From positions 1 through 30,935 of IMG/VR virus record IMGVR_UViG_2690316316_000011: DNA of 30,935 nucleotides, one strand, 5' to 3'. Position 1 is the first letter of the stretch; each line of letters begins with the position of its first letter. This DNA comes from a virus (lineage: Duplodnaviria > Heunggongvirae > Uroviricota > Caudoviricetes). A model generated the notes under the pieces. The model searched no databases, was not told the DNA's origin, and saw only the letters and a list, made by a program, of their open reading frames with translations. A program made the position numbers and the translations under genes. Below, in pieces: positions 2,515 through 26,783 of this stretch.

Positions 2515-2967
2515 TTACCTCACTCCCAACATTTCAATCAAACTCTGTAGCACCCGGAATAATTCGATTCGATTCTTTGGTAATCGGGATTTGCACAAAA
2601 TGGCTTTATTAAGATTATCAGGATGTAAACCGTAATAGCTAATCAATGCAGTTTCAATTAAAGTAGCTTCGGCATCTGTCTTAAAACAGTACAGAATCCT
2701 TTTTGAGTACTCCATACCTGAATCAATCATGGCATTTACACTTTTACTGCTGCCCGTATAGTCCATCCAGTTACTTTCAGTTGATGTACTCTCAAGGTTT
2801 GAAATGTCTTTGATACCTTTATATATCTGCTTCTTCCCGAAGTAGTACTCTCCCGTTTCGGGAAATTCAATTAAGTACACAAATGAACAGTACAGACCTT
2901 CATTTACTTCCTTGACATCCCATTGTTCTGGATCGAACATCGCCCAGTTGTTATTAATTCTCATCAC
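2515..2967 (-). CDS. GIY-YIG-like endonuclease (putative homing endonuclease)
   Basis: 150-aa ORF; N-terminal 'VYLIEFPETGEYYFGKK' has GIY-(10-11 aa)-YIG spacing, followed by a conserved-looking Arg and an E..LI segment (AEATLIETALI). Confidence 0.45.
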   Translation of the reverse strand: MMRINNNWAMFDPEQWDVKEVNEGLYCSFVYLIEFPETGEYYFGKKQIYKGIKDISNLESTSTESNWMDYTGSSKSVNAMIDSGMEYSKRILYCFKTDAEATLIETALISYYGLHPDNLNKAILCKSRLPKNRIELFRVLQSLIEMLGVR

Positions 2968-8328: not shown

Positions 8329-8936
8329 GTTTGATCCTGATTCACCTGTCCTAATAAACTAAAGTATTCATCCCCTTTATAGAGAGATTGATATACTGAA
8401 TTGGCGGCAATCAATGGCGGCTGTCTGTCCAGCTTCTTATAAATGCTGTTCACATAAACTGTCATTTCATTCGTTTTTTCATTTGGATCGGCTACTGCCT
8501 GAATGTAATCAATAAATCCTGAGAACATCAGCATTGAGTACAATACAGTACTGTCATAGGGATTCAGAATAACGAGTGTAATATTCATCTGTGCATCTTT
8601 AAGGAATCCCCCTAAAGCAAGTGCTCTTACACTCGTGTTCACATTACTAATTTTGAAGTTAATCGCATCGTTATTGATCCCCTTCTGTTCGCTGAAAGAA
8701 GGCAATGAACCACTAATGATATCGGGAAAACTAATGTACTGGTTGCCATTCAGATCAATATCAATAAGTGAATCAGTCCAGTGAAAACCATTTGTACCTT
8801 TCGGGAGTACATCAAAACAGGTAACATGAACACCTAAACTCATTACATCCATGACACTAAGGCGTGGTTTAGTCGTGCCCCGAACTAACTTCCAGTACTT
8901 TAATAATGTTGCGTTAGTTAAAATACTCTCGTCCAT
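8313..8936 (-). CDS. minor tail protein (gpL position)
   Basis: 207-aa ORF, synteny only; overlaps downstream gene by 16 nt. Confidence 0.4.
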
Positions 8937-9493
8937 CAGATGATATTCTCCGTTGCTTTTAATGTAATATTCATTATGTTACCTACGGGCATTGTATAAT
9001 CATTATCGGGATCTAATATTGCTTCAATCTGAATGTTGTTATAGATAATAGCCTCATTTGCCTGCACGGTATTTTGCAGTACAGGAAATACGGTTAATGA
9101 GGTACTGGTACGATCAATAATTCTGTATATCTTTTTATGATTCGTGAATTGTATTAACTCACCAACTGTTATTGAATTATTATTAGTAGTTATTACCCTT
9201 GTACCCTTTGAAGCGATTGACTGACTTGTTAATGCCCCGCTCTGTGCTCCCCTGTAAGCACCCATCAATCCGAGCGATAATGTGAAGGATTTACCCTGCG
9301 AATACTGAGCCAGAAAGTTTTGAACCTCCCCAATACTGGAAGGATTGAAACTTAACTGAAACTGAATCTCATAGTATTGAATACCCGTACTTCTCATGAT
9401 ACGTTGGCCTGTCCATGTTTGATTTGAGTAAACAGGTTCAGTACTTTTAATCTGGAAGTTTGTTATTTTTATTTGATTTGAAAAGGATGCCAT
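8936..9493 (-). CDS. minor tail protein (gpM / distal tail position)
   Basis: 185-aa ORF, first minor tail gene after the tape measure; synteny-based call. Confidence 0.4.
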   Translation of the reverse strand: MASFSNQIKITNFQIKSTEPVYSNQTWTGQRIMRSTGIQYYEIQFQLSFNPSSIGEVQNFLAQYSQGKSFTLSLGLMGAYRGAQSGALTSQSIASKGTRVITTNNNSITVGELIQFTNHKKIYRIIDRTSTSLTVFPVLQNTVQANEAIIYNNIQIEAILDPDNDYTMPVGNIMNITLKATENII

Positions 9494-9494
9494 A

Positions 9495-10067
9495 GTGATA
9501 CCTCGAATATCTTCTTTCTTTATTTATTTGAAAACCTCTTTTCTTAATTTTTTTAGGAGGCTTGATTGGCAGGCCGCATCGGTTATAGTTGCTATGATTT
9601 TGTTTGGAGCACAAATAGGCTATAACACATATGATAAATGGAAGGAAAGTTCAGATAATGTTTTTAAAATGCGTGTAATATTATTAAGCGAAATAAACAA
9701 CAACCTTATGGCTCTTGCAACTGGCGGCGATGATTCTCAGGTATTAGGTACTTACGAAATTTGTATTCCTTTACCTGCCGGAGATACAGAAGCCATTAAA
9801 AGAGTAGCAACCGCCGTTTCCTATTTGCATGATGAAGTATATTTTTCACAATTAGAAAAGTTAGCATCACTTCCTAAAAAAGAAGTAGATGCGATAGTGA
9901 AAAGTTATTATTCATTATCAAGATTGCGTACCCTTTCTACGCAACTTGACTTCAATATCAACTATTCACCGTCTAAGGTAAAATTAATGAGAGATGAATA
10001 TTACAATCTTTATAGCTTAACAAGCTCTCTATCTAACTATTTGACTCATCACACTGAAAATCCCTAA
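9495..10067 (+). CDS. opposite-strand moron ORF, hypothetical membrane protein
   Basis: 190-aa ORF antisense to the tail operon, filling a 585-bp gap between tape measure and minor tail genes; N-terminal hydrophobic helix (AASVIVAMILFGAQIGY); AT-rich, no AGTACT copies. True start may be an internal Met. Confidence 0.3.
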   Translation: MIPRISSFFIYLKTSFLNFFRRLDWQAASVIVAMILFGAQIGYNTYDKWKESSDNVFKMRVILLSEINNNLMALATGGDDSQVLGTYEICIPLPAGDTEAIKRVATAVSYLHDEVYFSQLEKLASLPKKEVDAIVKSYYSLSRLRTLSTQLDFNINYSPSKVKLMRDEYYNLYSLTSSLSNYLTHHTENP

Positions 10068-12378: not shown

Positions 12379-12974
12379 CTACACTTCTGCTTTTTCTTGT
12401 GTAGTGAGATCGCTATTAAGAACATCCAGAAAATCAAAATCAGCAACTTTGATACTACGCCGTGCCTCTGGCGTGAGATTCCCATTACTTATCGTGGTGT
12501 AATAGCACTGATAAGCATGTTTCAACATCTCAATTTGCGTACCTGTCGGTTCTATATAGGCATCGTAAACCATAAGCATATCGAGTACTTCAGGATCTAA
12601 ATTAAAGTACTCATCTGGTGATAAACCACGTTTATTGACCATTTTACAGAAGTACCGCAGATGGCTATCACTTCTTACTTTTTTTCGACTTCATCCACTG
12701 GATTACTGTCACTGACAAGTTGAATAATTGCCTGATAAATTTTACCCTGCATAACATAATCTATACTGTTGACATTAATACGCCCATCAATATCTTCATC
12801 AGAGAAAATAGGATCACCATTTTCATCTTTAACACAAAGAATAAGAGTATTTGCTACATCAGTACAGTTTGCAAAATCGCGACCATTTGGACGGTGGATG
12901 TAGAGCGTGAAGCCTTCGATCTCAAATGGTTTTAGCTCTGGTTGTAATTTCTTTTTTAGTTCTATTAAATTCAT
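12379..12974 (-). CDS. tail assembly chaperone frameshift fusion (gpGT-like), made by -1 ribosomal frameshift
   Basis: The -1 frame is open from the slippery site (...KK-VRSDSHLRYFCK-MVNKRGLSPDEYF...) into the 87-aa ORF 12379-12642; the frame relation (codon phase +1 in coordinates) matches a -1 shift. Confidence 0.65.
12675..12974 (-). CDS. tail assembly chaperone (gpG-like)
   Basis: 99-aa acidic ORF between major tail candidate and tape measure; ends ...VDEVEKK* with a slippery heptamer immediately before the stop. Confidence 0.7.
   Translation of the reverse strand: MNLIELKKKLQPELKPFEIEGFTLYIHRPNGRDFANCTDVANTLILCVKDENGDPIFSDEDIDGRINVNSIDYVMQGKIYQAIIQLVSDSNPVDEVEKK
12678..12684 (-). promoter_or_regulatory. 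programmed -1 frameshift slippery heptamer A AAA AAG
   Basis: Minus-strand mRNA reads GTC GAA AAA AAG TAA; A_AAA_AAG in the zero frame directly before the G stop codon. Confidence 0.7.
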
Positions 12975-12992
12975 CTGTTATCTCCATATACG

Positions 12993-13021
12993 AAAAAGGG
13001 AAAGTTAATAACCTTCCCTTT
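12993..13021 (-). terminator. intrinsic terminator-like hairpin downstream of major tail gene
   Basis: On the minus transcript AAAGGGAAGG-uuauuaa-CUUUCCCUUU followed by UU; pairs perfectly only on the minus strand (one G-U), A-C mismatch on plus. Lies between the 167-aa gene stop and the G gene start. Confidence 0.45.
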
Positions 13022-13031
13022 ATTTATTAAA

Positions 13032-13535
13032 TTATGGAGTTTCAGTAATCAGTCCTGAATCAATAGCTGCACCATCTACAGCAAGCGTGAAGGTCTTAGT
13101 TACGACTTCATCCTTGTCACCACCAATAGTCGTACTCGACACGAAACAGGTGTAGATAACGTAGAATCCTGTTGTTTTAGTGGCATCTTCAAAATAGCTG
13201 AGTTTGATCTGACAACGTTTTTGATCATCGGCAAGCTGTTCTAACTTTTGGTGTACTTCATTATCTGGCAAGTAATTAACTGCAAGACTAATATCAGGAA
13301 TTGATTTAGTACCTAATAATTTCCGGTCATACGCGTTATTAAATGTTTTTACAGTAATTACGGTACTCTCAAAGCCTGAAGTTGTGAAGGTATTCACTTC
13401 GGGGATTACTTCAAAATCCGTTGTAATAGTACTGCCAGCACTTGTACCTACTTCGACCTGTAGGTTAGCACCAGCAAAAATATCCATAGCCATATTTATA
13501 TCCTTATAAGAATTGAATTGACGGGATAAATCCAT
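13032..13535 (-). CDS. major tail (tube) protein candidate
   Basis: 167-aa ORF immediately upstream of G/GT, the lambda gpV position; paralogous to the N-terminal ~150 aa of the 911-aa fibre (shared NYLPD..HQ.L and GDKD.VVTKT motifs). Likely true start at internal MAMDIF. Confidence 0.5.
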   Translation of the reverse strand: MDLSRQFNSYKDINMAMDIFAGANLQVEVGTSAGSTITTDFEVIPEVNTFTTSGFESTVITVKTFNNAYDRKLLGTKSIPDISLAVNYLPDNEVHQKLEQLADDQKRCQIKLSYFEDATKTTGFYVIYTCFVSSTTIGGDKDEVVTKTFTLAVDGAAIDSGLITETP

Positions 13536-13550
13536 TTATCCCTTTTGTAT

Positions 13551-16286
13551 TTATTTATTATCGAGTAGTGATTGTACAAGTACTTTCAATGTTTCAATTT
13601 CGGCTGCAAGTTCATCATTCTTTATTTTTAGTGCCTTGATAGCAGCAAGACCATCTAACATCATGGGTGTTTCATCGAGATGATAGAGATCACCGACTTC
13701 TTTAACGTATTGTGGATCAATATTCATAATCTGCTGTGAAACCACACCACGTCTTGGTGTTTCATCCTCATCAGATTTAAAAGTGAAGTTCACAAAATCC
13801 ATTTGCGATATATTATTGAGTGCAATATTAAGATCTAATTTTTCACCAATATTCTTTGCTCTTTCATCGGAAACTGAAGAAGTTGTTATTTGTGCCCACG
13901 CTCCCCATGCGGCAACATTCGTTTGTATCCGAGAATAGATACGATTCGACGTATCATAAAAACGTTGTTGATACCATTGATTGGTTGTTCCCATTGCTGA
14001 AGTGCCGCCGACATTTAAACCCTGAGTTGCCTGTGTAAATAATGAGCCATAGATATTTCCGCTTAATGGACCATTTGACCACGTACCGCCGACAGCTTGC
14101 CACCCCTGATTAACAACATTCATATCAGTACCAGTAGCTGCTTGTGATGAGCCAGTAGGTGCAAGTCCTCCAGCAAGGCCAATGGGTGTGCCATAGCCCG
14201 AAATTGGCGGTAGATACGCCCAGCCCTGCCCAGCGACTGACCCAATCCTATCTCTGAAATAGAAAATAACCCCCTTACCGGCTTCCTGGCTATTCTCAAT
14301 TCTTACCCGGCGACCTACCACATCATCACCACCAGTAACATCTAAGTTGATTGCGGGCCAATCATCCCGCGATACCGTTAGTTGATTGCTGATCACTTGA
14401 GGTTGATTGAACGTATTTGATCTGTCCAATGTCGGTACTTCATGCCATTGCCATTTACCACTGTTCTGTGATGGCTGCACACCTCCAGCAAAGACACGAT
14501 TACCATCAGGCTGAACAAGCATTCCAGAATAAGACGGTGAACCATCATACTGTGATACATAACCAGCACCGCCGAATGATGAAGGGGAATCAATAGTTGC
14601 TGTAGTCGTTCGAATGAACCCTTTCGGTGCATCCTTCATATCGGCTACATGGCGAGGATTGATTCCAAGGCCAACTTCTGAAAGCGTATTGTCGATTGAA
14701 TAAATTTGCTGACCATTTAATGTCACAGAACTACCTACGGTAATAGATCCACTGAAGGTCTGCCCAGCACTCCATGTATTGGCAGTGGAAAGCAATGGTA
14801 CAGTACTTCCAGATGTACCAATGTTTGTTGTCGCTGCCGTGCCAAGTCCTAAAGCAGTACGTGCTGCCGCTGCCGTCGTAGCCCCTGTACCGCCACTCGT
14901 TAAGGGTAATGGCGTAGAGAGGGATAACGACGATAAAGCTGCCGTACCGCCAGTGATAGCGGCTGCGTTAGCATTCTGCGTTGCGAGGCTACCTAACCCA
15001 AGATTAGTACGTGCTGTTTCTGTATTCGCAATGTCCGATAGATTCGATGCGATTTTTAGCTGTGCGTCATTAGTAATAGAACCAAGACCAATATCATCTT
15101 TCGAAAGTACTATATCGGCAGAGAGCTCATGACCATTTATCACAATCGTTTTTGGTACAAAATCAGTATTAACATGAGTAGTTAGTAAATTAATTGAAGC
15201 ATTAACACCATCGATCGTGCTATCGACTTCACCCTTTGAGTAAACATCCAGATTGTTACGGGCTTCTTCAATATCAGTCAGATCAGAAAGGTTATGACTG
15301 ATCGCCAATTGTGCATCGTCAGTAACGGAACCAAGACCAACATCATCTTTCGAAAGTACTACATCATCGCTGAGTACATGCCCGTTAATCGTTCTGGTAT
15401 CCGGTACACTGCCTGTGTCTGAACTCGTTAGTACCACATCATCAGAAAGTACATGGCCATTAACGGTACGTTCTACAGGAACAGCACCAACATCGCCAGG
15501 AGTCAGAACAATGTCAGTACTCAGTTGCTTGCCGTTTACTGTTCGAGTGAGAGGAACATAGCGTGCGTCCATCTGTGTAGCGGTATAGATACGAGTCCAC
15601 GCTGTAGTGGCATTCTTCGCATAGATACTTAGCGTTCCCGATTTCGTCATAGCAAGGGAACTGACAGACGAACCATCAACCAGACCAATCCCCATCATGT
15701 CGGCACCAGCAGGATTACCCGCCTGTGTTGACGGTACTTTGATAAAGCTGTTACCCGTAGGGATAGCCGGTGCGTATTGAGGAACATCCGTTGTGTTTGA
15801 ACCTACACCATAATCTCCCTGATAGACCGGAAGTAACGCCGTAATCGCCTGACTACGGGCAACAACATCAGTTGGGGTAAATTCATAGGTTTTGGTTACT
15901 ACGCTATCCTTATCCCCGGAGAGTTGAGTACTGGTAATCGCCCCGTTCACCATTGCATAAGTTAACTGGCTGCCCTCTTCCTGATAGGCAATGGTTAGCT
16001 GGAACACATCCTGATTTTCTGCTGCTTCATCCAGAAATTGATGTGTAGAATCATCAGGGAGGTAATTAACAACAATATCAACTGGATTAGCGGATTTCTC
16101 TGCAAGTAATTTACTGTTATATGTGCTGTTGTAGGTGTCGTACTGATTCACCTCTGATTCAATCTCCAGTACTGGAAATTCTGCCACTTCATTAATCTGG
16201 ACGTTGCCAATTCCCTGTGGTGATCTGTTCCCCGTATCGGGGTTATATGATAATGAAAGTCCATTACCTGTAAAAATATCTGCCAT
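13551..16286 (-). CDS. tail fibre with N-terminal tube-like domain and C-terminal intramolecular chaperone (peptidase S74-like) domain
   Basis: 911-aa ORF; N-terminal domain paralogous to the 167-aa neighbour; central repeats (RTVNGKQLSTDIVLT / RTVNGHVLSDDVVLT / RTINGHVLSDDVVLS / KTIVINGHELSADIVLS; GLGSVTDDAQL / GLGSITNDAQL); C-terminal 106 aa begin SDERAKNIGEKLDLN, matching the auto-cleavage motif of endosialidase / T5 pb1-type chaperone domains. Confidence 0.7.
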   Translation of the reverse strand: MADIFTGNGLSLSYNPDTGNRSPQGIGNVQINEVAEFPVLEIESEVNQYDTYNSTYNSKLLAEKSANPVDIVVNYLPDDSTHQFLDEAAENQDVFQLTIAYQEEGSQLTYAMVNGAITSTQLSGDKDSVVTKTYEFTPTDVVARSQAITALLPVYQGDYGVGSNTTDVPQYAPAIPTGNSFIKVPSTQAGNPAGADMMGIGLVDGSSVSSLAMTKSGTLSIYAKNATTAWTRIYTATQMDARYVPLTRTVNGKQLSTDIVLTPGDVGAVPVERTVNGHVLSDDVVLTSSDTGSVPDTRTINGHVLSDDVVLSKDDVGLGSVTDDAQLAISHNLSDLTDIEEARNNLDVYSKGEVDSTIDGVNASINLLTTHVNTDFVPKTIVINGHELSADIVLSKDDIGLGSITNDAQLKIASNLSDIANTETARTNLGLGSLATQNANAAAITGGTAALSSLSLSTPLPLTSGGTGATTAAAARTALGLGTAATTNIGTSGSTVPLLSTANTWSAGQTFSGSITVGSSVTLNGQQIYSIDNTLSEVGLGINPRHVADMKDAPKGFIRTTTATIDSPSSFGGAGYVSQYDGSPSYSGMLVQPDGNRVFAGGVQPSQNSGKWQWHEVPTLDRSNTFNQPQVISNQLTVSRDDWPAINLDVTGGDDVVGRRVRIENSQEAGKGVIFYFRDRIGSVAGQGWAYLPPISGYGTPIGLAGGLAPTGSSQAATGTDMNVVNQGWQAVGGTWSNGPLSGNIYGSLFTQATQGLNVGGTSAMGTTNQWYQQRFYDTSNRIYSRIQTNVAAWGAWAQITTSSVSDERAKNIGEKLDLNIALNNISQMDFVNFTFKSDEDETPRRGVVSQQIMNIDPQYVKEVGDLYHLDETPMMLDGLAAIKALKIKNDELAAEIETLKVLVQSLLDNK

Positions 16287-16301: not shown

Positions 16302-16694
16302 TTATCTTGTTTTCTCCGTAACTTGAATATTTATCGTGAATGACAGACTTACAGAGCCAGATATGGAATCTGTTACTATGTCGCTTTGTTCATATGAATA
16401 AGAAAGAATAATCAAGCCAGCATCTTTAAATGCCTGTGACTTTTGCTCATCAAAGGTACTGATAATCTGGTCATAAGTAATTGAAGGGGCCGTATTAGTA
16501 CTCTCTGGTTTTGGACTAACAAGGTACTGAATAGCAAATGATGCCGATTGTCTTTGATTGCCAAAATTAATACTGCTCAATGAATAATCGAATGCAATTT
16601 GTGTAAACACATCCTTTTCACGAGAAGCCGTCAGGTTCTTTGAAGCATTAATCAGTTGCTTCATTGTTTGCCGTACTTTACTAACTAATTCCAT
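16302..16694 (-). CDS. head-tail joining or tail completion protein (putative)
   Basis: 130-aa ORF between capsid and tail genes; synteny only. Confidence 0.3.
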   Translation of the reverse strand: MELVSKVRQTMKQLINASKNLTASREKDVFTQIAFDYSLSSINFGNQRQSASFAIQYLVSPKPESTNTAPSITYDQIISTFDEQKSQAFKDAGLIILSYSYEQSDIVTDSISGSVSLSFTINIQVTEKTR

Positions 16695-17017
16695 TAGTAA
16701 TCCTCCGCAAATGATTGCCCTGATTGCGTTCGGTAAAACACATTCACCATCCCGGAGTGATCATCTTCAATGTTATAGACAACCTGATTGATATCATCAA
16801 TTATCAGTACTGAATTAAGTGCCACGTTAGCAGTAGCTAAATCCTCTTTTTTCATACTTACATATGTTTCTGTGCTTTCGATAAATCCACCACCACTATC
16901 AATAGAAACGGGAAGTACTTCTACAATGCCAGTAAAAGTACTTCCCGTAGAAGTCTGGATTATTTGACCGAAAGCATTCAGAAACGCATTACATTGCGAT
17001 TCTTTAAACGCTCTCAT
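16694..17017 (-). CDS. head completion / connector protein (putative)
   Basis: 107-aa ORF immediately after the capsid gene; synteny only. Confidence 0.3.
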   Translation of the reverse strand: MRAFKESQCNAFLNAFGQIIQTSTGSTFTGIVEVLPVSIDSGGGFIESTETYVSMKKEDLATANVALNSVLIIDDINQVVYNIEDDHSGMVNVFYRTQSGQSFAEDY

Positions 17018-23465: not shown

Positions 23466-24587
23466 TTGGTAAAAAATGTCTACTTCGACGAATCAGGGTT
23501 TACAGGTAATAACTTACTTTCAAAAGACCAGCCTTTTTTTAGTTATGCAGCAGTCATAACTGATGAAGAAGAAAGTAAACAATGTGTAGATTACATAATA
23601 CAAAAGTACTCGATTGCAGCCGGAGAGCTAAAAGGTAGCACTCTCGTTAATAGCAAGAGACTTCAACCAGCCGTAGATGAGATACTTAATCATTTCCGTG
23701 GTCGTATGCGTGTGGTTGTTAACGAAAAGAAATATGCCCTTTCAGGGAAATTCTTTGAATATATTTTCGAGCCAGTATTAGCTGCTAAAAGCTCAATATT
23801 TTACAACCTTAAATTTCACCTATTCATCTCTAATATAATGTATTTTTCTTTAATAGCTAAGGATGAGTATTCTGAACTATTGCATTCTCGATTTGAAGAT
23901 TTTTCACGAGGTAAAATATTGGTTAATAGTTTTATCGAACCAGTTATTGGTACTAAAAACTCTGAAATTATGATGGACATTCATGATTTCGCCAAACATA
24001 ACATTTCAATAATTGAAGAGGAATATGAAGGTCTTGAGGGAACTGGGTTTGATAAGTGGTTGTTAGATTTGACAACTACTTCTCTTTATAATCTCTTATG
24101 CGATATGAGTAGTAGGTTTGGTACATTGAGGGCTATATGTGACAGTTCAAAACCATTAATCACCCATCAGGAATCATTCAATGAGATGATAGGTAATGAT
24201 GAAATTGTGTTCGAGACCTACAATAATAAAAAAGTCCCGATCACATTCAAACTCTCTGAGCCGATAATCCTTTCTGATTCTAAAGTCACGCATGGTATTC
24301 AAATTGCTGATGTGATAGCTGCGGCCAGCATTTATGTGCTTAATAAGAAAAAATCCAAAGAAAGATATCACGCAAAATGGCTAACTCATTTCGAAGATGA
24401 GATTTTTTATTGGCAATGTTGTGTTGTTCCCACACCAGAAAACCTTGACCCTAAAAATGTCAACAGCTATTTGAATAGATATATATTGCAAGAAATTGCT
24501 GAACGAAGCAGAAAATCAATACCTGTTTTAGATGATATTGAAAAGGATATCATACGAATTTCCAGAACATTAGCAATGGTGCGTTGA
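23466..24587 (+). CDS. DUF3800-like protein (putative RNase H-like fold), unknown function
   Basis: 373-aa ORF beginning with a TTG codon 10 nt after an AAGGA Shine-Dalgarno; N-terminal VYFDESGFTG and C-terminal HGIQIADVIAAASIY match my recollection of the DUF3800 signature; divergent from the structural operon; AT-rich with one AGTACT copy. Confidence 0.5.
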   Translation: MVKNVYFDESGFTGNNLLSKDQPFFSYAAVITDEEESKQCVDYIIQKYSIAAGELKGSTLVNSKRLQPAVDEILNHFRGRMRVVVNEKKYALSGKFFEYIFEPVLAAKSSIFYNLKFHLFISNIMYFSLIAKDEYSELLHSRFEDFSRGKILVNSFIEPVIGTKNSEIMMDIHDFAKHNISIIEEEYEGLEGTGFDKWLLDLTTTSLYNLLCDMSSRFGTLRAICDSSKPLITHQESFNEMIGNDEIVFETYNNKKVPITFKLSEPIILSDSKVTHGIQIADVIAAASIYVLNKKKSKERYHAKWLTHFEDEIFYWQCCVVPTPENLDPKNVNSYLNRYILQEIAERSRKSIPVLDDIEKDIIRISRTLAMVR

Positions 24588-26096: not shown

Positions 26097-26783
26097 TTGA
26101 TTATGGACGAGAATAAAAAAGAAGTTATTGAAATAAGATCAGAAGATAAGGACTTTTTTGCAGAATTTATTGATTGTGAAGGTCCAATTATCCAAGATTC
26201 AATTGATCATAAAAAAATCACCCTTGCACTTGATAAAGCCCATGACATAAGAAAGTTTGAAATAGATCTCTATTGGAAGCGTGCTACTTATTTCTTTGCT
26301 TTTTTTACGGTTGTTACTGCTGCATTCGGTTTTACATTCTCAAATTACCGCTATACCTCTCTATCCCCCGCAATTGCTATTATCGGGATGACTTTTTCAC
26401 AGTGTTTTTATCATGTTAATATTGGCAGTAAGTACTGGCAGGAAAACTGGGAGTTCATTATTGATAAAATTGAATATTATGTGACTGGCAATCTTTACAA
26501 AGTTAGTTTCTTTGAAGATCATAATACATTAAGACCATCAGTGTCTAAAATTAACATTTATCTTAGCTGCTTTATCAAATGGGTTTGGATTTGTTCTCTA
26601 TTCCTATCTATTTTTAGCATACTCTTTCCGCATCCTATTTACTCATTGGTCTATTCATTAGTTGCATTCAAGCTGTATAAGCATACAGAACAGCACTGCA
26701 AAAAAACATTCAGTGATGAGTTAACTAATGATAAAAAAATCATTAGACGATTCCATTTCCGAAATCCAACATACAAAAAATAG
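26097..26783 (+). CDS. polytopic membrane protein, unknown function
   Basis: 228-aa ORF; soluble N-terminal ~60 aa then two pairs of hydrophobic helices (YFFAFFTVVTAAFGFTF / AIAIIGMTFSQCFY; IYLSCFIKWVWICSLFLSIFSILF / IYSLVYSLVAF) and a basic C-terminus; AT-rich, one AGTACT copy. Confidence 0.4.
   Translation: MIMDENKKEVIEIRSEDKDFFAEFIDCEGPIIQDSIDHKKITLALDKAHDIRKFEIDLYWKRATYFFAFFTVVTAAFGFTFSNYRYTSLSPAIAIIGMTFSQCFYHVNIGSKYWQENWEFIIDKIEYYVTGNLYKVSFFEDHNTLRPSVSKINIYLSCFIKWVWICSLFLSIFSILFPHPIYSLVYSLVAFKLYKHTEQHCKKTFSDELTNDKKIIRRFHFRNPTYKK

What the first reader, a model, noticed from the sequence alone, without database searches (positions are those of the whole stretch)
13032..16286. Tail fibre built on a duplicated tail-tube-like domain
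The N-terminal ~150 aa of the 911-aa protein align with the adjacent 167-aa protein in the major-tail position (NYLPDDSTHQFLDEAAENQ...GDKDSVVTKTYEF versus NYLPDNEVHQKLEQLADDQ...GDKDEVVTKTFTL). The long protein then continues into classic fibre repeats and a C-terminal chaperone domain. This suggests a tube subunit paralog that co-assembles into the tail and displays a side fibre, encoded by a separate gene rather than by the frameshift or Ig-like extension routes known for other siphoviruses. If instead neither is the tube protein, the true tube gene is missing from an otherwise complete tail module, which would itself be odd.
Basis: partly seen in the sequence, partly recalled or inferred. 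Interest (0 to 1): 0.7.

Follow-up and report, generated by a model that had tools for sequence, protein, structure and literature searches.

The report
Side fibre fused to tail-tube paralog
A prophage of E. coli and its relatives carries, next to its normal tail-tube gene, a diverged copy of that gene fused to a long receptor-binding fibre, which suggests a way of attaching side fibres to a phage tail that I found described nowhere.

Summary
The 911-aa protein (13551-16286, minus strand) and the adjacent 167-aa ORF (its real start is probably at 13493, giving 153 aa) are paralogs: BLASTP E = 2e-21, family-to-family hhalign probability 99.7%.

Both are predicted to have the lambda gpV tail-tube fold. 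The short one is the canonical major tube protein. It passes Pfam Phage_tail_3 and sits directly upstream of a G/GT-type chaperone pair with an A AAA AAG frameshift site, so no tube gene is missing.

The long protein consists of a tube-like domain, a small beta-sandwich like gpV's Ig-like decoration, a repeat shaft, a tip 48% identical to the HK578 lateral tail fibre, and a Peptidase_S74 chaperone.

The gene pair is not a one-off. It occurs in all 12 related loci examined, and more than 90 sequence clusters of such long proteins exist. All the named ones come from Enterobacterales and are annotated only as tail fibre proteins.

Most likely the tube-like domain sits in the tube wall and covalently anchors side fibres. 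[quoted passage not shown] Position and copy number are untested.

It is a new variant of a known kind and moderately interesting.

The parts
13551..16286 (-). Gene for the 911-aa fusion of a tail-tube paralog and a side fibre
   Evidence: Single uninterrupted ORF. It is 910/911 identical to E. coli HEB2068771.1, annotated 'tail fiber domain-containing protein'. An AAGGA Shine-Dalgarno sequence lies upstream.
15837..16286 (-). Tail-tube (TTP)-like domain, aa 1-150
   Evidence: BLASTP against the short TTP gives E = 2e-21. hhalign gives probability 99.7%. phrog_158 'major tail protein' matches at E = 5.7e-23. In the AF2 model the core blocks have pLDDT of about 85-92, and the top Foldseek matches in the PDB are lambda gpV, YDC107, 80alpha, NF5 and monocin tube proteins at probability 1.00.
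15552..15779 (-). Second, all-beta domain (aa 170-245), probably an Ig/FN3-like sandwich. It follows a low-confidence linker (aa 151-169).
   Evidence: The AF2 model has five strands with pLDDT 86-90. Foldseek alignments to full-length gpV (243-245 aa) and to FN3-bearing major tail proteins span 250-294 columns, so they cover both domains. The domain is conserved across the family with motifs GDYGVGS...GNSFIKVP...NP...TAWTRIYT. It matches no Pfam family or PDB sequence.
14967..15551 (-). Repeat shaft, aa 246-440
   Evidence: Four copies of [VI]NGxxLSxD[IV][VA]L and two NLSD[LI] motifs. Several tail fibre PHROGs match here.
14697..14966 (-). Segment rich in Thr, Ala, Ser and Gly, aa 441-530
   Evidence: Composition is T 20%, A 17%, S 16%, G 14%. 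phrog_37013 'tail fiber' matches aa 442-522.
13875..14696 (-). Distal (receptor-binding) part, aa 531-804
   Evidence: tblastn gives 48% identity to the Escherichia phage HK578 tail fibre over aa 532-907, E = 5e-100. It also matches the lateral tail fibres of many T1-like and other coliphages.
13554..13874 (-). Peptidase_S74 intramolecular chaperone, aa 805-911, starting with SDERAK at aa 806
   Evidence: Pfam PF13884 matches aa 806-862 at 32.6 bits against a cut-off of 22.
13032..13493 (-). Major tail tube protein, 153 aa (the listed ORF extends to 13535)
   Evidence: Pfam Phage_tail_3 scores 30.7 bits against a cut-off of 24.2. phrog_158 matches at E = 8.3e-20. Foldseek matches gpV and YDC107 at probability 1.00. 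More than 130 homologues of about 150 aa are named 'phage tail tube protein'.
13523..13542 (.). Stem-loop in the spacer between the long and short genes
   Evidence: Found. A hairpin at the same place, with a different sequence, is present in all 9 related loci folded.
12999..13018 (-). Terminator-like hairpin plus T-run just after the short TTP gene
   Evidence: Found. It recurs in 7 of the 9 related loci folded.
12379..12974 (-). Tail assembly chaperone pair of the G/GT type. The 99-aa ORF ends at 12675. The slippery site A AAA AAG at 12678-12684 leads by a -1 shift into the 87-aa ORF frame.
   Evidence: phrog_344 and Pfam TAC_13 give weak matches. The 87-aa ORF has no Shine-Dalgarno sequence.
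16302..17017 (-). Two small neck genes upstream. The 107-aa protein (16694-17017) resembles FII / head closure. The 130-aa protein (16302-16694) is a possible terminator by size and position only.
   Evidence: For the 107-aa protein: phrog_4598 'head closure Hc1' E = 0.01, hhalign against lambda FII E = 0.008, and PGAP names it 'head-tail joining protein' in L016. The 130-aa protein matches nothing.
8936..9493 (-). Distal tail protein (Dit), the proposed neighbour of the paralog ring
   Evidence: phrog_1302 'distal tail protein' matches at E = 9.3e-17. The Pfam pb9 B-domain scores 27 bits, equal to its cut-off.

Best explanation
The 911-aa protein is this phage's side tail fibre, and its attachment module is a diverged duplicate of the phage's own tail tube protein.

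**Shown**
- Residues 1-150 are a paralog of the 153-aa major tube protein and are predicted to have the gpV-type tube fold.
- A small beta-sandwich follows, in the position of gpV's Ig-like decoration.
- After that comes an exchangeable fibre with an S74 chaperone.
- The gene pair, long gene first and short gene second, is conserved throughout a lineage of lambda-like Enterobacterales prophages.

**Inferred**
- The fibre trimerises with the help of its C-terminal chaperone, which then cleaves itself off at about Ser806.
- The three tethered tube-like domains take subunit positions in the tube wall, so the fibre is covalently part of the tube rather than docked on it.
- My preferred version is that two trimers build one dedicated hexameric ring between the distal tail protein and the first ring of the short tube protein, giving two side fibres near the tip. 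These would speed reversible adsorption before the J-like central fibre binds.

On this reading, one polypeptide does what T5 does with three proteins: the p140 tube-paralog ring, the p132 Ig-like collar and the pb1 fibre. I put about 0.7 on the domain sitting in the tube wall and about 0.4 on the single distal ring specifically.
For: - **Paralogy.**
- **Tube fold in both proteins.**
- **Retained tube elements.** The N-arm DIFxG, the hairpin region, NYLPD..H and GDKDxVVTK are conserved between the paralogs. The domain therefore keeps the elements that tube proteins use to contact neighbouring rings. I did not map these motifs onto a structure, so that assignment is from general knowledge of tube proteins.
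- **The short protein is the canonical tube protein.** It passes the Pfam cut-off, lies immediately upstream of the G/GT chaperone pair and is followed by a terminator-like hairpin.
- **The short protein evolves more slowly.** Its mean pairwise identity is 63-68%, against 41-45% for the long protein's N-domain. This is what is expected if the short protein is the major homopolymer and the long one a minor component.
- **Conservation of the arrangement.** It is present in all 12 related loci examined: 10 genome loci, an E. coli RefSeq prophage and the DCP80 record. A full HMMER scan found more than 90 clusters of long proteins, 487-1563 aa, with the tube-like domain starting at residue 1.
- **Exchangeable C-termini.** The ends carry S74, Phage_tail_C_2, or no family plus a separate small ORF that looks like a fibre assembly chaperone. 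The tip is 48% identical to the HK578 lateral tail fibre. This pattern is typical of receptor-binding side fibres.
- **No other fibre gene.** The window has no Stf/Tfa-type gene downstream of the J-like gene.
- **Precedents.** T5 p140 is a tube-protein duplicate that forms a single ring next to Dit, and that ring carries the fibre collar (PMC10038345). In Ur-lambda, three adjacent N-terminal collar domains are joined to each trimeric Stf by 10-residue linkers (PMC12617516).
Against: - There are no virion data, so neither incorporation nor copy number nor position is shown.
- Both genes have equally good AAGGA Shine-Dalgarno sequences, so nothing in the start signals predicts a rare protein.
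- The gene lies between the neck genes and the tube gene, not among the tip genes, where the T5 authors place p140.
- Correlations of pairwise identities between proteins lean only slightly towards tip proteins and are not discriminating.
- Six tube-like domains must be matched to three-fold fibres, and that geometry is untested.
- The model confidence is only moderate: mean pLDDT 74.8 for the long N-terminus and 65.6 for the short protein.
- The Pfam tube families did not report the long N-domain at E <= 0.01.
Confidence: 0.6

Rival explanations
1. Bottle-brush tail. The long paralog co-polymerises with the short tube protein at many positions along the tube. This would resemble SPP1 gp17.1/gp17.1*, but with two genes instead of a frameshift. 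The tail would carry many fibres along its length.
For: - The N-domain keeps the N-arm and hairpin-region motifs of the short tube protein. If both ring faces are intact, it could stack anywhere.
- Both genes have equally strong Shine-Dalgarno sequences, and no sense-strand terminator lies between them.
- The domain order (tube domain, beta-sandwich, extension) is that of decorated major tube proteins such as gpV.
Against: - The long N-domain evolves clearly faster than the short tube protein.
- All the attachment modes for side fibres in siphophages and tailocins that I found described place the fibres at the tip.
- Fibres of about 650 residues on many rings would be very costly and could hinder each other.
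- None of this is decisive.
Confidence: 0.2
2. Neck fibres. The paralog forms the last, head-proximal ring of the tube, so the fibres emerge below the head like whiskers.
For: - The gene lies between the two small neck genes and the tube gene.
- No gpZ-sized tail-completion gene is visible, and the 130-aa protein could not be identified as a terminator.
Against: - Adjacency to the tube gene is explained simply by tandem duplication.
- It is hard to see how a paralog would be added only at the end of polymerisation.
- The tip of the fibre is homologous to lateral tail fibres that act at the cell surface.
- From the 739-aa tape measure protein I estimate a tail of about 110 nm (my own estimate, not computed here). 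A neck fibre would then not reach the tip.
- In the 9-genome subset, pairwise identities correlate less with the 130-aa protein (0.38) than with the tip proteins (0.58-0.73). This evidence is weak.
Confidence: 0.1
3. Reversed roles, or no insertion in the tube. Either the long protein is the major tube protein and the 153-aa protein is a special undecorated ring (as T5 p140 is relative to pb6), or the tube-like domain only docks on the outside of the tail.
For: - In T5 the decorated protein is the major one and the undecorated paralog is the single ring.
- Nothing computed here measures abundance.
Against: - The short protein is the better conserved of the two, passes the Pfam tube model, and lies in the V position before G/GT with a terminator-like hairpin after it.
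- By my estimate of about 26 rings, a tube built only of the long protein would carry about 50 trimeric fibres and weigh as much as the capsid. Nothing like that is known to me.
- A complete tube fold with conserved inter-ring elements is not expected for a mere docking domain.
Confidence: 0.07

Closest known systems
Phage T5 p140 (tube-protein duplicate ring), the p132 Ig-like collar and the pb1 L-shaped fibre (PMC10038345)
   Same: A duplicate of the tube protein is used in addition to the major tube protein. In T5 it forms one ring between the tube and Dit, and that ring is the platform for the side fibres through an Ig-like domain. The protein here has the same three modules in the same order: tube fold, beta-sandwich, fibre.
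   Different: In T5 these are three separate proteins held together non-covalently, and p140 is a tandem double tube domain that forms trimers. By the authors' account its gene lies with the baseplate genes, and it is only 9% identical to pb6. Here everything is one polypeptide with a single tube domain, about 30% identical to the major tube protein, encoded directly upstream of it. Its position in the virion is not known.
Ur-lambda side tail fibre Stf (PMC12617516)
   Same: It is a trimeric side fibre of a lambda-like siphophage that speeds adsorption. Three adjacent N-terminal domains, arranged in a ring around the tail axis, are tethered to each trimer by short linkers. This solves the same symmetry problem.
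   Different: StfN is an Ig-like collar of 12 copies wrapped around the gpV/gpM junction, not a tube-wall subunit. The stf gene lies downstream of J. I found no sequence similarity between domain 2 and StfN (hhalign probability 0.1%).
Decorated major tube proteins: lambda gpV (Ig-like C-domain) and SPP1 gp17.1* (FN3 domain added by frameshift)
   Same: A tube domain is followed by a beta-sandwich exposed on the outside of the tube. Foldseek aligns the model to full-length gpV across both domains.
   Different: Those decorations are single small domains carried on the major tube protein itself or on its frameshift variant. Here a separate paralogous gene carries the decoration plus a fibre of about 650 residues with its own chaperone.
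Lateral tail fibres of HK578 (Dhillonvirus) and T1-like coliphages
   Same: The distal 380 residues, including the S74 chaperone, are homologous (48% identity, E = 5e-100).
   Different: The N-terminal attachment part is unrelated. None of the 50,697 phage records has the tube-like N-domain except DCP80.
Lactococcus phage Nocturne116 DTP1/DTP2 hetero-hexameric ring (PMC13595954)
   Same: Two paralogs with a tube-like fold share the wall of the tail. One of them carries an extra outer domain.
   Different: Those are distal tail proteins, three plus three in a single ring, with a small outer domain and no fibre.

Membership tests
Siphophage major tail tube protein (lambda gpV type; Pfam Phage_tail_3 and related families) | Profile match above the curated cut-off | tested here: met
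   The short protein scores 30.7 bits on PF08813 against a cut-off of 24.2 and matches phrog_158 at E = 8.3e-20. The long N-domain matches phrog_158 at E = 5.7e-23, but no Pfam tube family was reported for it at E <= 0.01.
Siphophage major tail tube protein (lambda gpV type; Pfam Phage_tail_3 and related families) | Tail-tube beta-sandwich fold | tested here: met
   Both AF2 models give lambda gpV, YDC107, 80alpha, NF5 and monocin tube proteins as top Foldseek matches in the PDB, with probability 1.00 and E between 3e-8 and 1e-6. Model confidence is moderate (mean pLDDT 74.8 and 65.6).
Siphophage major tail tube protein (lambda gpV type; Pfam Phage_tail_3 and related families) | Gene directly upstream of the G/GT chaperone pair with a programmed frameshift | tested here: met
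   This is met for the short gene: an A AAA AAG site lies at the end of the 99-aa chaperone ORF. The long gene is one position further upstream.
Siphophage major tail tube protein (lambda gpV type; Pfam Phage_tail_3 and related families) | Polymerises as stacked hexameric rings around the tape measure protein in the virion | not testable with these tools
   Needs virion proteomics, cryo-EM or multimer modelling.
Trimeric tail fibre or spike with a Peptidase_S74 intramolecular chaperone | C-terminal PF13884 domain | tested here: met
   32.6 bits against a cut-off of 22, at aa 806-862. The domain is also present in 8 of the 10 related long proteins scanned.
Trimeric tail fibre or spike with a Peptidase_S74 intramolecular chaperone | Cleavage-site serine with a downstream lysine at the start of the domain | tested here: inconclusive
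   SDERAK is present at aa 806-811. That this matches the catalytic Ser/Lys motif is my recollection of the family, not a test.
Trimeric tail fibre or spike with a Peptidase_S74 intramolecular chaperone | Trimerisation and autoproteolytic release of the chaperone | not testable with these tools
   Needs expression and mass spectrometry.
T5 p140-type extra tube-paralog ring | A tube-fold paralog encoded in addition to the major tube protein | tested here: met
T5 p140-type extra tube-paralog ring | Forms a single ring between Dit and the first tube ring | not testable with these tools
   Correlations of pairwise identities give only a weak, non-discriminating lean towards tip proteins.
T5 p140-type extra tube-paralog ring | Undecorated ring surrounded by a separate Ig-like collar protein that holds the fibres | tested here: not met
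   Here the beta-domain and the fibre are part of the same chain. It is therefore not a member of this family, only a possible functional analogue.
Lambda Stf-type side tail fibre | N-terminal StfN collar domain, with the gene downstream of J | tested here: not met
   hhalign of the domain 2 family against lambda Stf residues 1-110 gives probability 0.1% (a single-sequence target, so sensitivity is low). The gene lies upstream of the tube gene.

The most novel reading that the evidence does not exclude
The long paralog is not confined to one ring but is built into the tube repeatedly. These prophages would then make siphovirus tails studded along their length with full-size trimeric receptor-binding fibres, turning the whole tail into an adsorption organ. 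Each fibre would be stitched into the tube wall through three tube-fold subunits, an assembly geometry with no structural precedent that I know of.
Probability: 0.2. Interest if true: 0.8.

Novelty: new variant of a known kind. Interest (0 to 1): 0.58.

Why it matters
A 2026 structural paper lists three characterised ways of attaching side fibres in siphophages and tailocins and adds a fourth (PMC13455828). All four are non-covalent:
- a Dit decoration domain (monocin);
- an Ig-like collar made by the fibre itself (Ur-lambda);
- a collar protein around an extra tube-like ring (T5);
- docking on the central fibre (F-pyocin).

A fibre that is covalently continuous with a tube-fold subunit would be a further mode. 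It would also be a clear case of gene duplication creating a new structural role. It poses a concrete symmetry question: how do six tube positions serve three-fold fibres?

The family is large in Enterobacterales prophages, including E. coli, Salmonella, Klebsiella, Serratia and Edwardsiella. Databases call its members only 'tail fiber domain-containing protein', so the attachment domain is unannotated.

In practice, the conserved first 250 residues mark the boundary at which fibre tips are naturally swapped. That is useful for host-range prediction and for engineering these phages.

Tried and rejected
1. **Nucleotide search against phages.** Megablast of the region against 50,697 phage genomes found nothing.
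2. **Protein searches against phages and plasmids.** tblastn of the N-domain found only the DCP80 record among phages and nothing in plasmids.
3. **Word-index protein search.** It returned only 16-19 hits, all truncated, because assemblies break inside the fibre gene. This at first made the family look rare. The full HMMER scan corrected that.
4. **Profile searches against PDB sequences.** The short tube family, the 130-aa family and domain 2 all gave nothing meaningful.
5. **hhalign against single lambda proteins.** The 107-aa, 130-aa, domain 2 and long N-domain families were compared with lambda FII, Z, U, V, M, G and StfN. Only the 107-aa family against FII gave a hint (E = 0.008). Even the long N-domain against gpV failed, so the test is too insensitive to identify the 130-aa protein or domain 2.
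6. **Pfam on domain 2 alone.** No family matched, even at E <= 10.
7. **Correlation of pairwise identities between proteins.** This was meant to place the paralog near the tip or the neck. Almost every tail protein correlates with every other, so it is not discriminating.
8. **Shine-Dalgarno comparison as a proxy for expression.** Many genes in the module share AAGGA, so it is uninformative.
9. **'The tube gene is missing'.** Rejected; see the membership test.
10. **A chance or low-complexity match between the two proteins.** Rejected on the statistics and on conservation in all 12 related loci.
11. **Literature searches.** Four searches for a described fusion of a tube protein and a fibre found none. 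The library is incomplete, so this is absence of evidence only.


Full report
**What is in the window**

The minus strand carries a lambda-like head and tail module. In transcription order it contains:
- the small terminase and a GpA-type large terminase;
- a 176-aa head-tail joining protein;
- a lambda-B-type portal;
- a fused S78 protease and capsid protein;
- two small proteins of 107 and 130 aa;
- the 911-aa protein;
- the 167-aa ORF;
- a 99-aa tail assembly chaperone and an 87-aa ORF;
- a 739-aa tape measure protein;
- a pb9-like distal tail protein (Dit);
- 207-aa and 138-aa (DUF6950) tip proteins;
- a 1067-aa J-like central fibre.

The 911-aa protein is 910/911 identical to an E. coli protein annotated 'tail fiber domain-containing protein'. 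The short protein is 99% identical to a Klebsiella pneumoniae 'phage tail protein'. A Buttiauxella genome carries the same module, with the short tube protein and the long N-domain each about 96% identical. This is therefore a temperate phage of Enterobacterales. I found no close cultured relative.

**Check of the observation**

The paralogy is real.
- BLASTP of the two proteins gives 36% identity over 134 residues, E = 2e-21.
- Comparing the two families profile to profile gives probability 99.7%, E = 5.7e-27.
- Both proteins match phrog_158 'major tail protein'.
- The fibre repeats and the Peptidase_S74 chaperone are present.

One detail needs correction. Homologues of the short protein all start at MAMDIF, which is M15 of the ORF, and a good ribosome-binding site precedes that codon. 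The gene is therefore most likely 13032-13493, 153 aa.

**Which is the tube protein**

The short protein is the major tube protein.
- It passes the curated Pfam cut-off for Phage_tail_3.
- Its AF2 model matches lambda gpV and other solved siphophage tube proteins at Foldseek probability 1.00.
- It lies immediately upstream of a chaperone pair. The first ORF of that pair ends in the slippery heptamer A AAA AAG, from which a -1 shift reads into the 87-aa ORF, which has no ribosome-binding site of its own. This is the classical V-G-GT-H arrangement.

So the tube gene is not missing.

**Anatomy of the long protein**

An AF2 model of residues 1-250 has mean pLDDT 74.8, with the cores of both domains at about 85-92. 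The protein divides as follows.

| Residues | Feature | Evidence |
|---|---|---|
| 1-150 | Tube fold | Model, |
| 152-167 | Floppy linker | Low pLDDT, |
| 170-245 | Five-stranded beta domain | Model, |
| 246-440 | Repeat shaft | |
| 441-530 | Thr/Ala/Ser/Gly-rich stretch | |
| 532-907 | 48% identical to the HK578 tail fibre, E = 5e-100 | |
| from 806 | S74 chaperone, beginning SDERAK | |

The top Foldseek matches in the PDB are lambda gpV, YDC107, 80alpha, NF5, monocin and Sf11 tube proteins. Alignments to full-length gpV, and to FN3-bearing major tail proteins in the BFVD library, run through both domains. The first 250 residues therefore look like a decorated tube protein of the gpV type, meaning a tube domain plus an Ig/FN3-like sandwich. 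The identity of the second domain is inferred only from these alignment spans. It matches nothing by sequence.

**How widespread it is**

A scan of one genome per species with the short tube protein returned ten prophages. They come from Buttiauxella, Pluralibacter, Scandinavium, Pseudocitrobacter, Enterobacter, Phytobacter (two), Serratia, Mangrovibacter and Yersinia. In all ten, the gene directly upstream of the tube gene, or upstream of one small ORF that precedes the tube gene, encodes a 590-1182-aa protein with the tube-like N-terminus.

The same arrangement holds in an E. coli RefSeq prophage. There the order is head-tail joining protein, hypothetical 130 aa, a 1233-aa 'tail fiber domain-containing protein', then 'phage tail tube protein'. 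It also holds in the siphovirus-like module of GenBank record DCP80.

A full HMMER scan of 1.84 billion cluster representatives found 267 relatives at E <= 0.001. More than 90 of them are long proteins of 487-1563 aa with the match starting at residue 1. Every named example I checked is from Enterobacterales and is annotated only as a tail fibre, an S74 peptidase or hypothetical.

The two paralog groups are cleanly separated. Identity is 17-35% between the groups, 41-45% within the long N-domains and 63-68% within the short proteins. The duplication is therefore old, and the long copy evolves faster.

The first 250 residues or so are conserved, and the rest is exchanged. Of the ten related long proteins scanned, eight end in S74 and one ends in Phage_tail_C_2. 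The other two match no family and are followed by a small ORF that looks like a fibre assembly chaperone.

**How it most likely works**

Shown:
- a complete, conserved tube-fold domain is covalently joined to a modular fibre;
- it is encoded beside the real tube gene in every member examined;
- the window has no other side-fibre gene.

Inferred: the fibre trimerises through its chaperone, and its three tube-like domains occupy subunit positions in the tube wall.

Where this happens cannot be decided here. I favour a single ring next to Dit, which would give two fibres per virion. My reasons are these.
- All the attachment modes for side fibres in siphophages and tailocins that I found described place the fibres at the tip (PMC13455828).
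- T5 already uses a tube-protein duplicate, p140, as exactly such a ring, and that ring carries an Ig-like collar and the fibres (PMC10038345).
- Ur-lambda shows that three adjacent ring domains can be linked to one trimer by short linkers (PMC12617516).
- The faster evolution of the long copy suits a minor component.

Against this version:
- the gene lies beside the neck genes;
- both genes have similar ribosome-binding sites;
- the correlation of pairwise identities between proteins does not discriminate.

The rivals are fibres along the whole tube, a head-proximal ring, and reversed roles or mere docking. I rate them at about 0.2, 0.1 and 0.07.

**Comparison with what is known, and novelty**

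It works like a fused version of the T5 p140 / p132 / pb1 arrangement, or like a gpV-type decorated tube protein whose decoration has grown into a full fibre. It is not a member of either family. The p140 ring is undecorated and uses a separate collar protein, and gpV-type decorations sit on the major tube protein itself.

Four literature searches found no description of a fusion between a tube protein and a fibre. The library is incomplete, so this is absence of evidence only.

I file it as a new variant of a known kind. The mechanism is plausible but untested. Interest is moderate to fairly high for phage structural biology.

Noticed in passing
window 13523-13542 (spacer between the 911-aa gene and the tube gene); the same place in L006-L009, L011-L014 and L016: A stem-loop is kept in every related locus although its sequence differs, so the structure itself appears to be conserved. 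In the direction of the genes it has no U-tract. On the opposite strand it reads as a terminator. It might set the relative expression of the two paralogs or stop antisense transcripts. Its function is unknown.
   Followed up: partly
window 12678-12684 (-), end of the 99-aa chaperone ORF: There is a canonical A AAA AAG slippery heptamer. A -1 shift reads on into the 87-aa ORF frame (…KKVRSDSHLRYFCKMVNK…), giving a G/GT-type chaperone pair.
   Followed up: yes
window 9495-10067 (+): A 190-aa ORF lies on the opposite strand, wedged between the tape measure and distal tail protein genes. It matches no family. It is not present at that place in the E. coli prophage L016, so it is probably an inserted accessory gene (moron).
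   Followed up: partly
L001 = GenBank PQ671644 (Escherichia phage DCP80), bases 1-22500: This 141-kb record is filed under Straboviridae/Gaprivervirus. It begins with a lambda-like siphovirus head and tail module, which includes a 698-aa fusion of a tube-like domain and a fibre, a second 745-aa fibre gene and a 164-aa tube protein. T4-like genes (endonuclease VII, motA) follow directly. It looks like a chimeric assembly.
   Followed up: partly
L010 9580-9957 and L015 9491-9970: Where the long protein lacks the S74 chaperone, a 125-159-aa ORF sits between it and the tube gene. Its tryptophan/proline-rich C-terminal motif resembles tail fibre assembly proteins, as far as I recall that family.
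   Followed up: partly
window 2515-2967 (-), 23466-24587 (+), 26097-26783 (+): Accessory genes lie around the structural module: a SegE-like GIY-YIG endonuclease, a DUF3800 protein and an 8xMP octameric membrane protein. The last two are on the opposite strand next to the terminase genes.
   Followed up: no
window 16302-16694 (-) and the neck region in general: Only two small genes (107 and 130 aa) lie between the capsid gene and the tail genes, and no gpZ-sized tail-completion gene is visible. The 130-aa protein has the size and position of lambda gpU but matches nothing by sequence.
   Followed up: partly
L002-L004 and proteins P0005-P0016: Metagenome and draft-genome assemblies repeatedly end inside the long fibre gene, so databases hold many truncated copies of 136-430 aa. 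As a result, a word-index search under-reports the family.
   Followed up: yes
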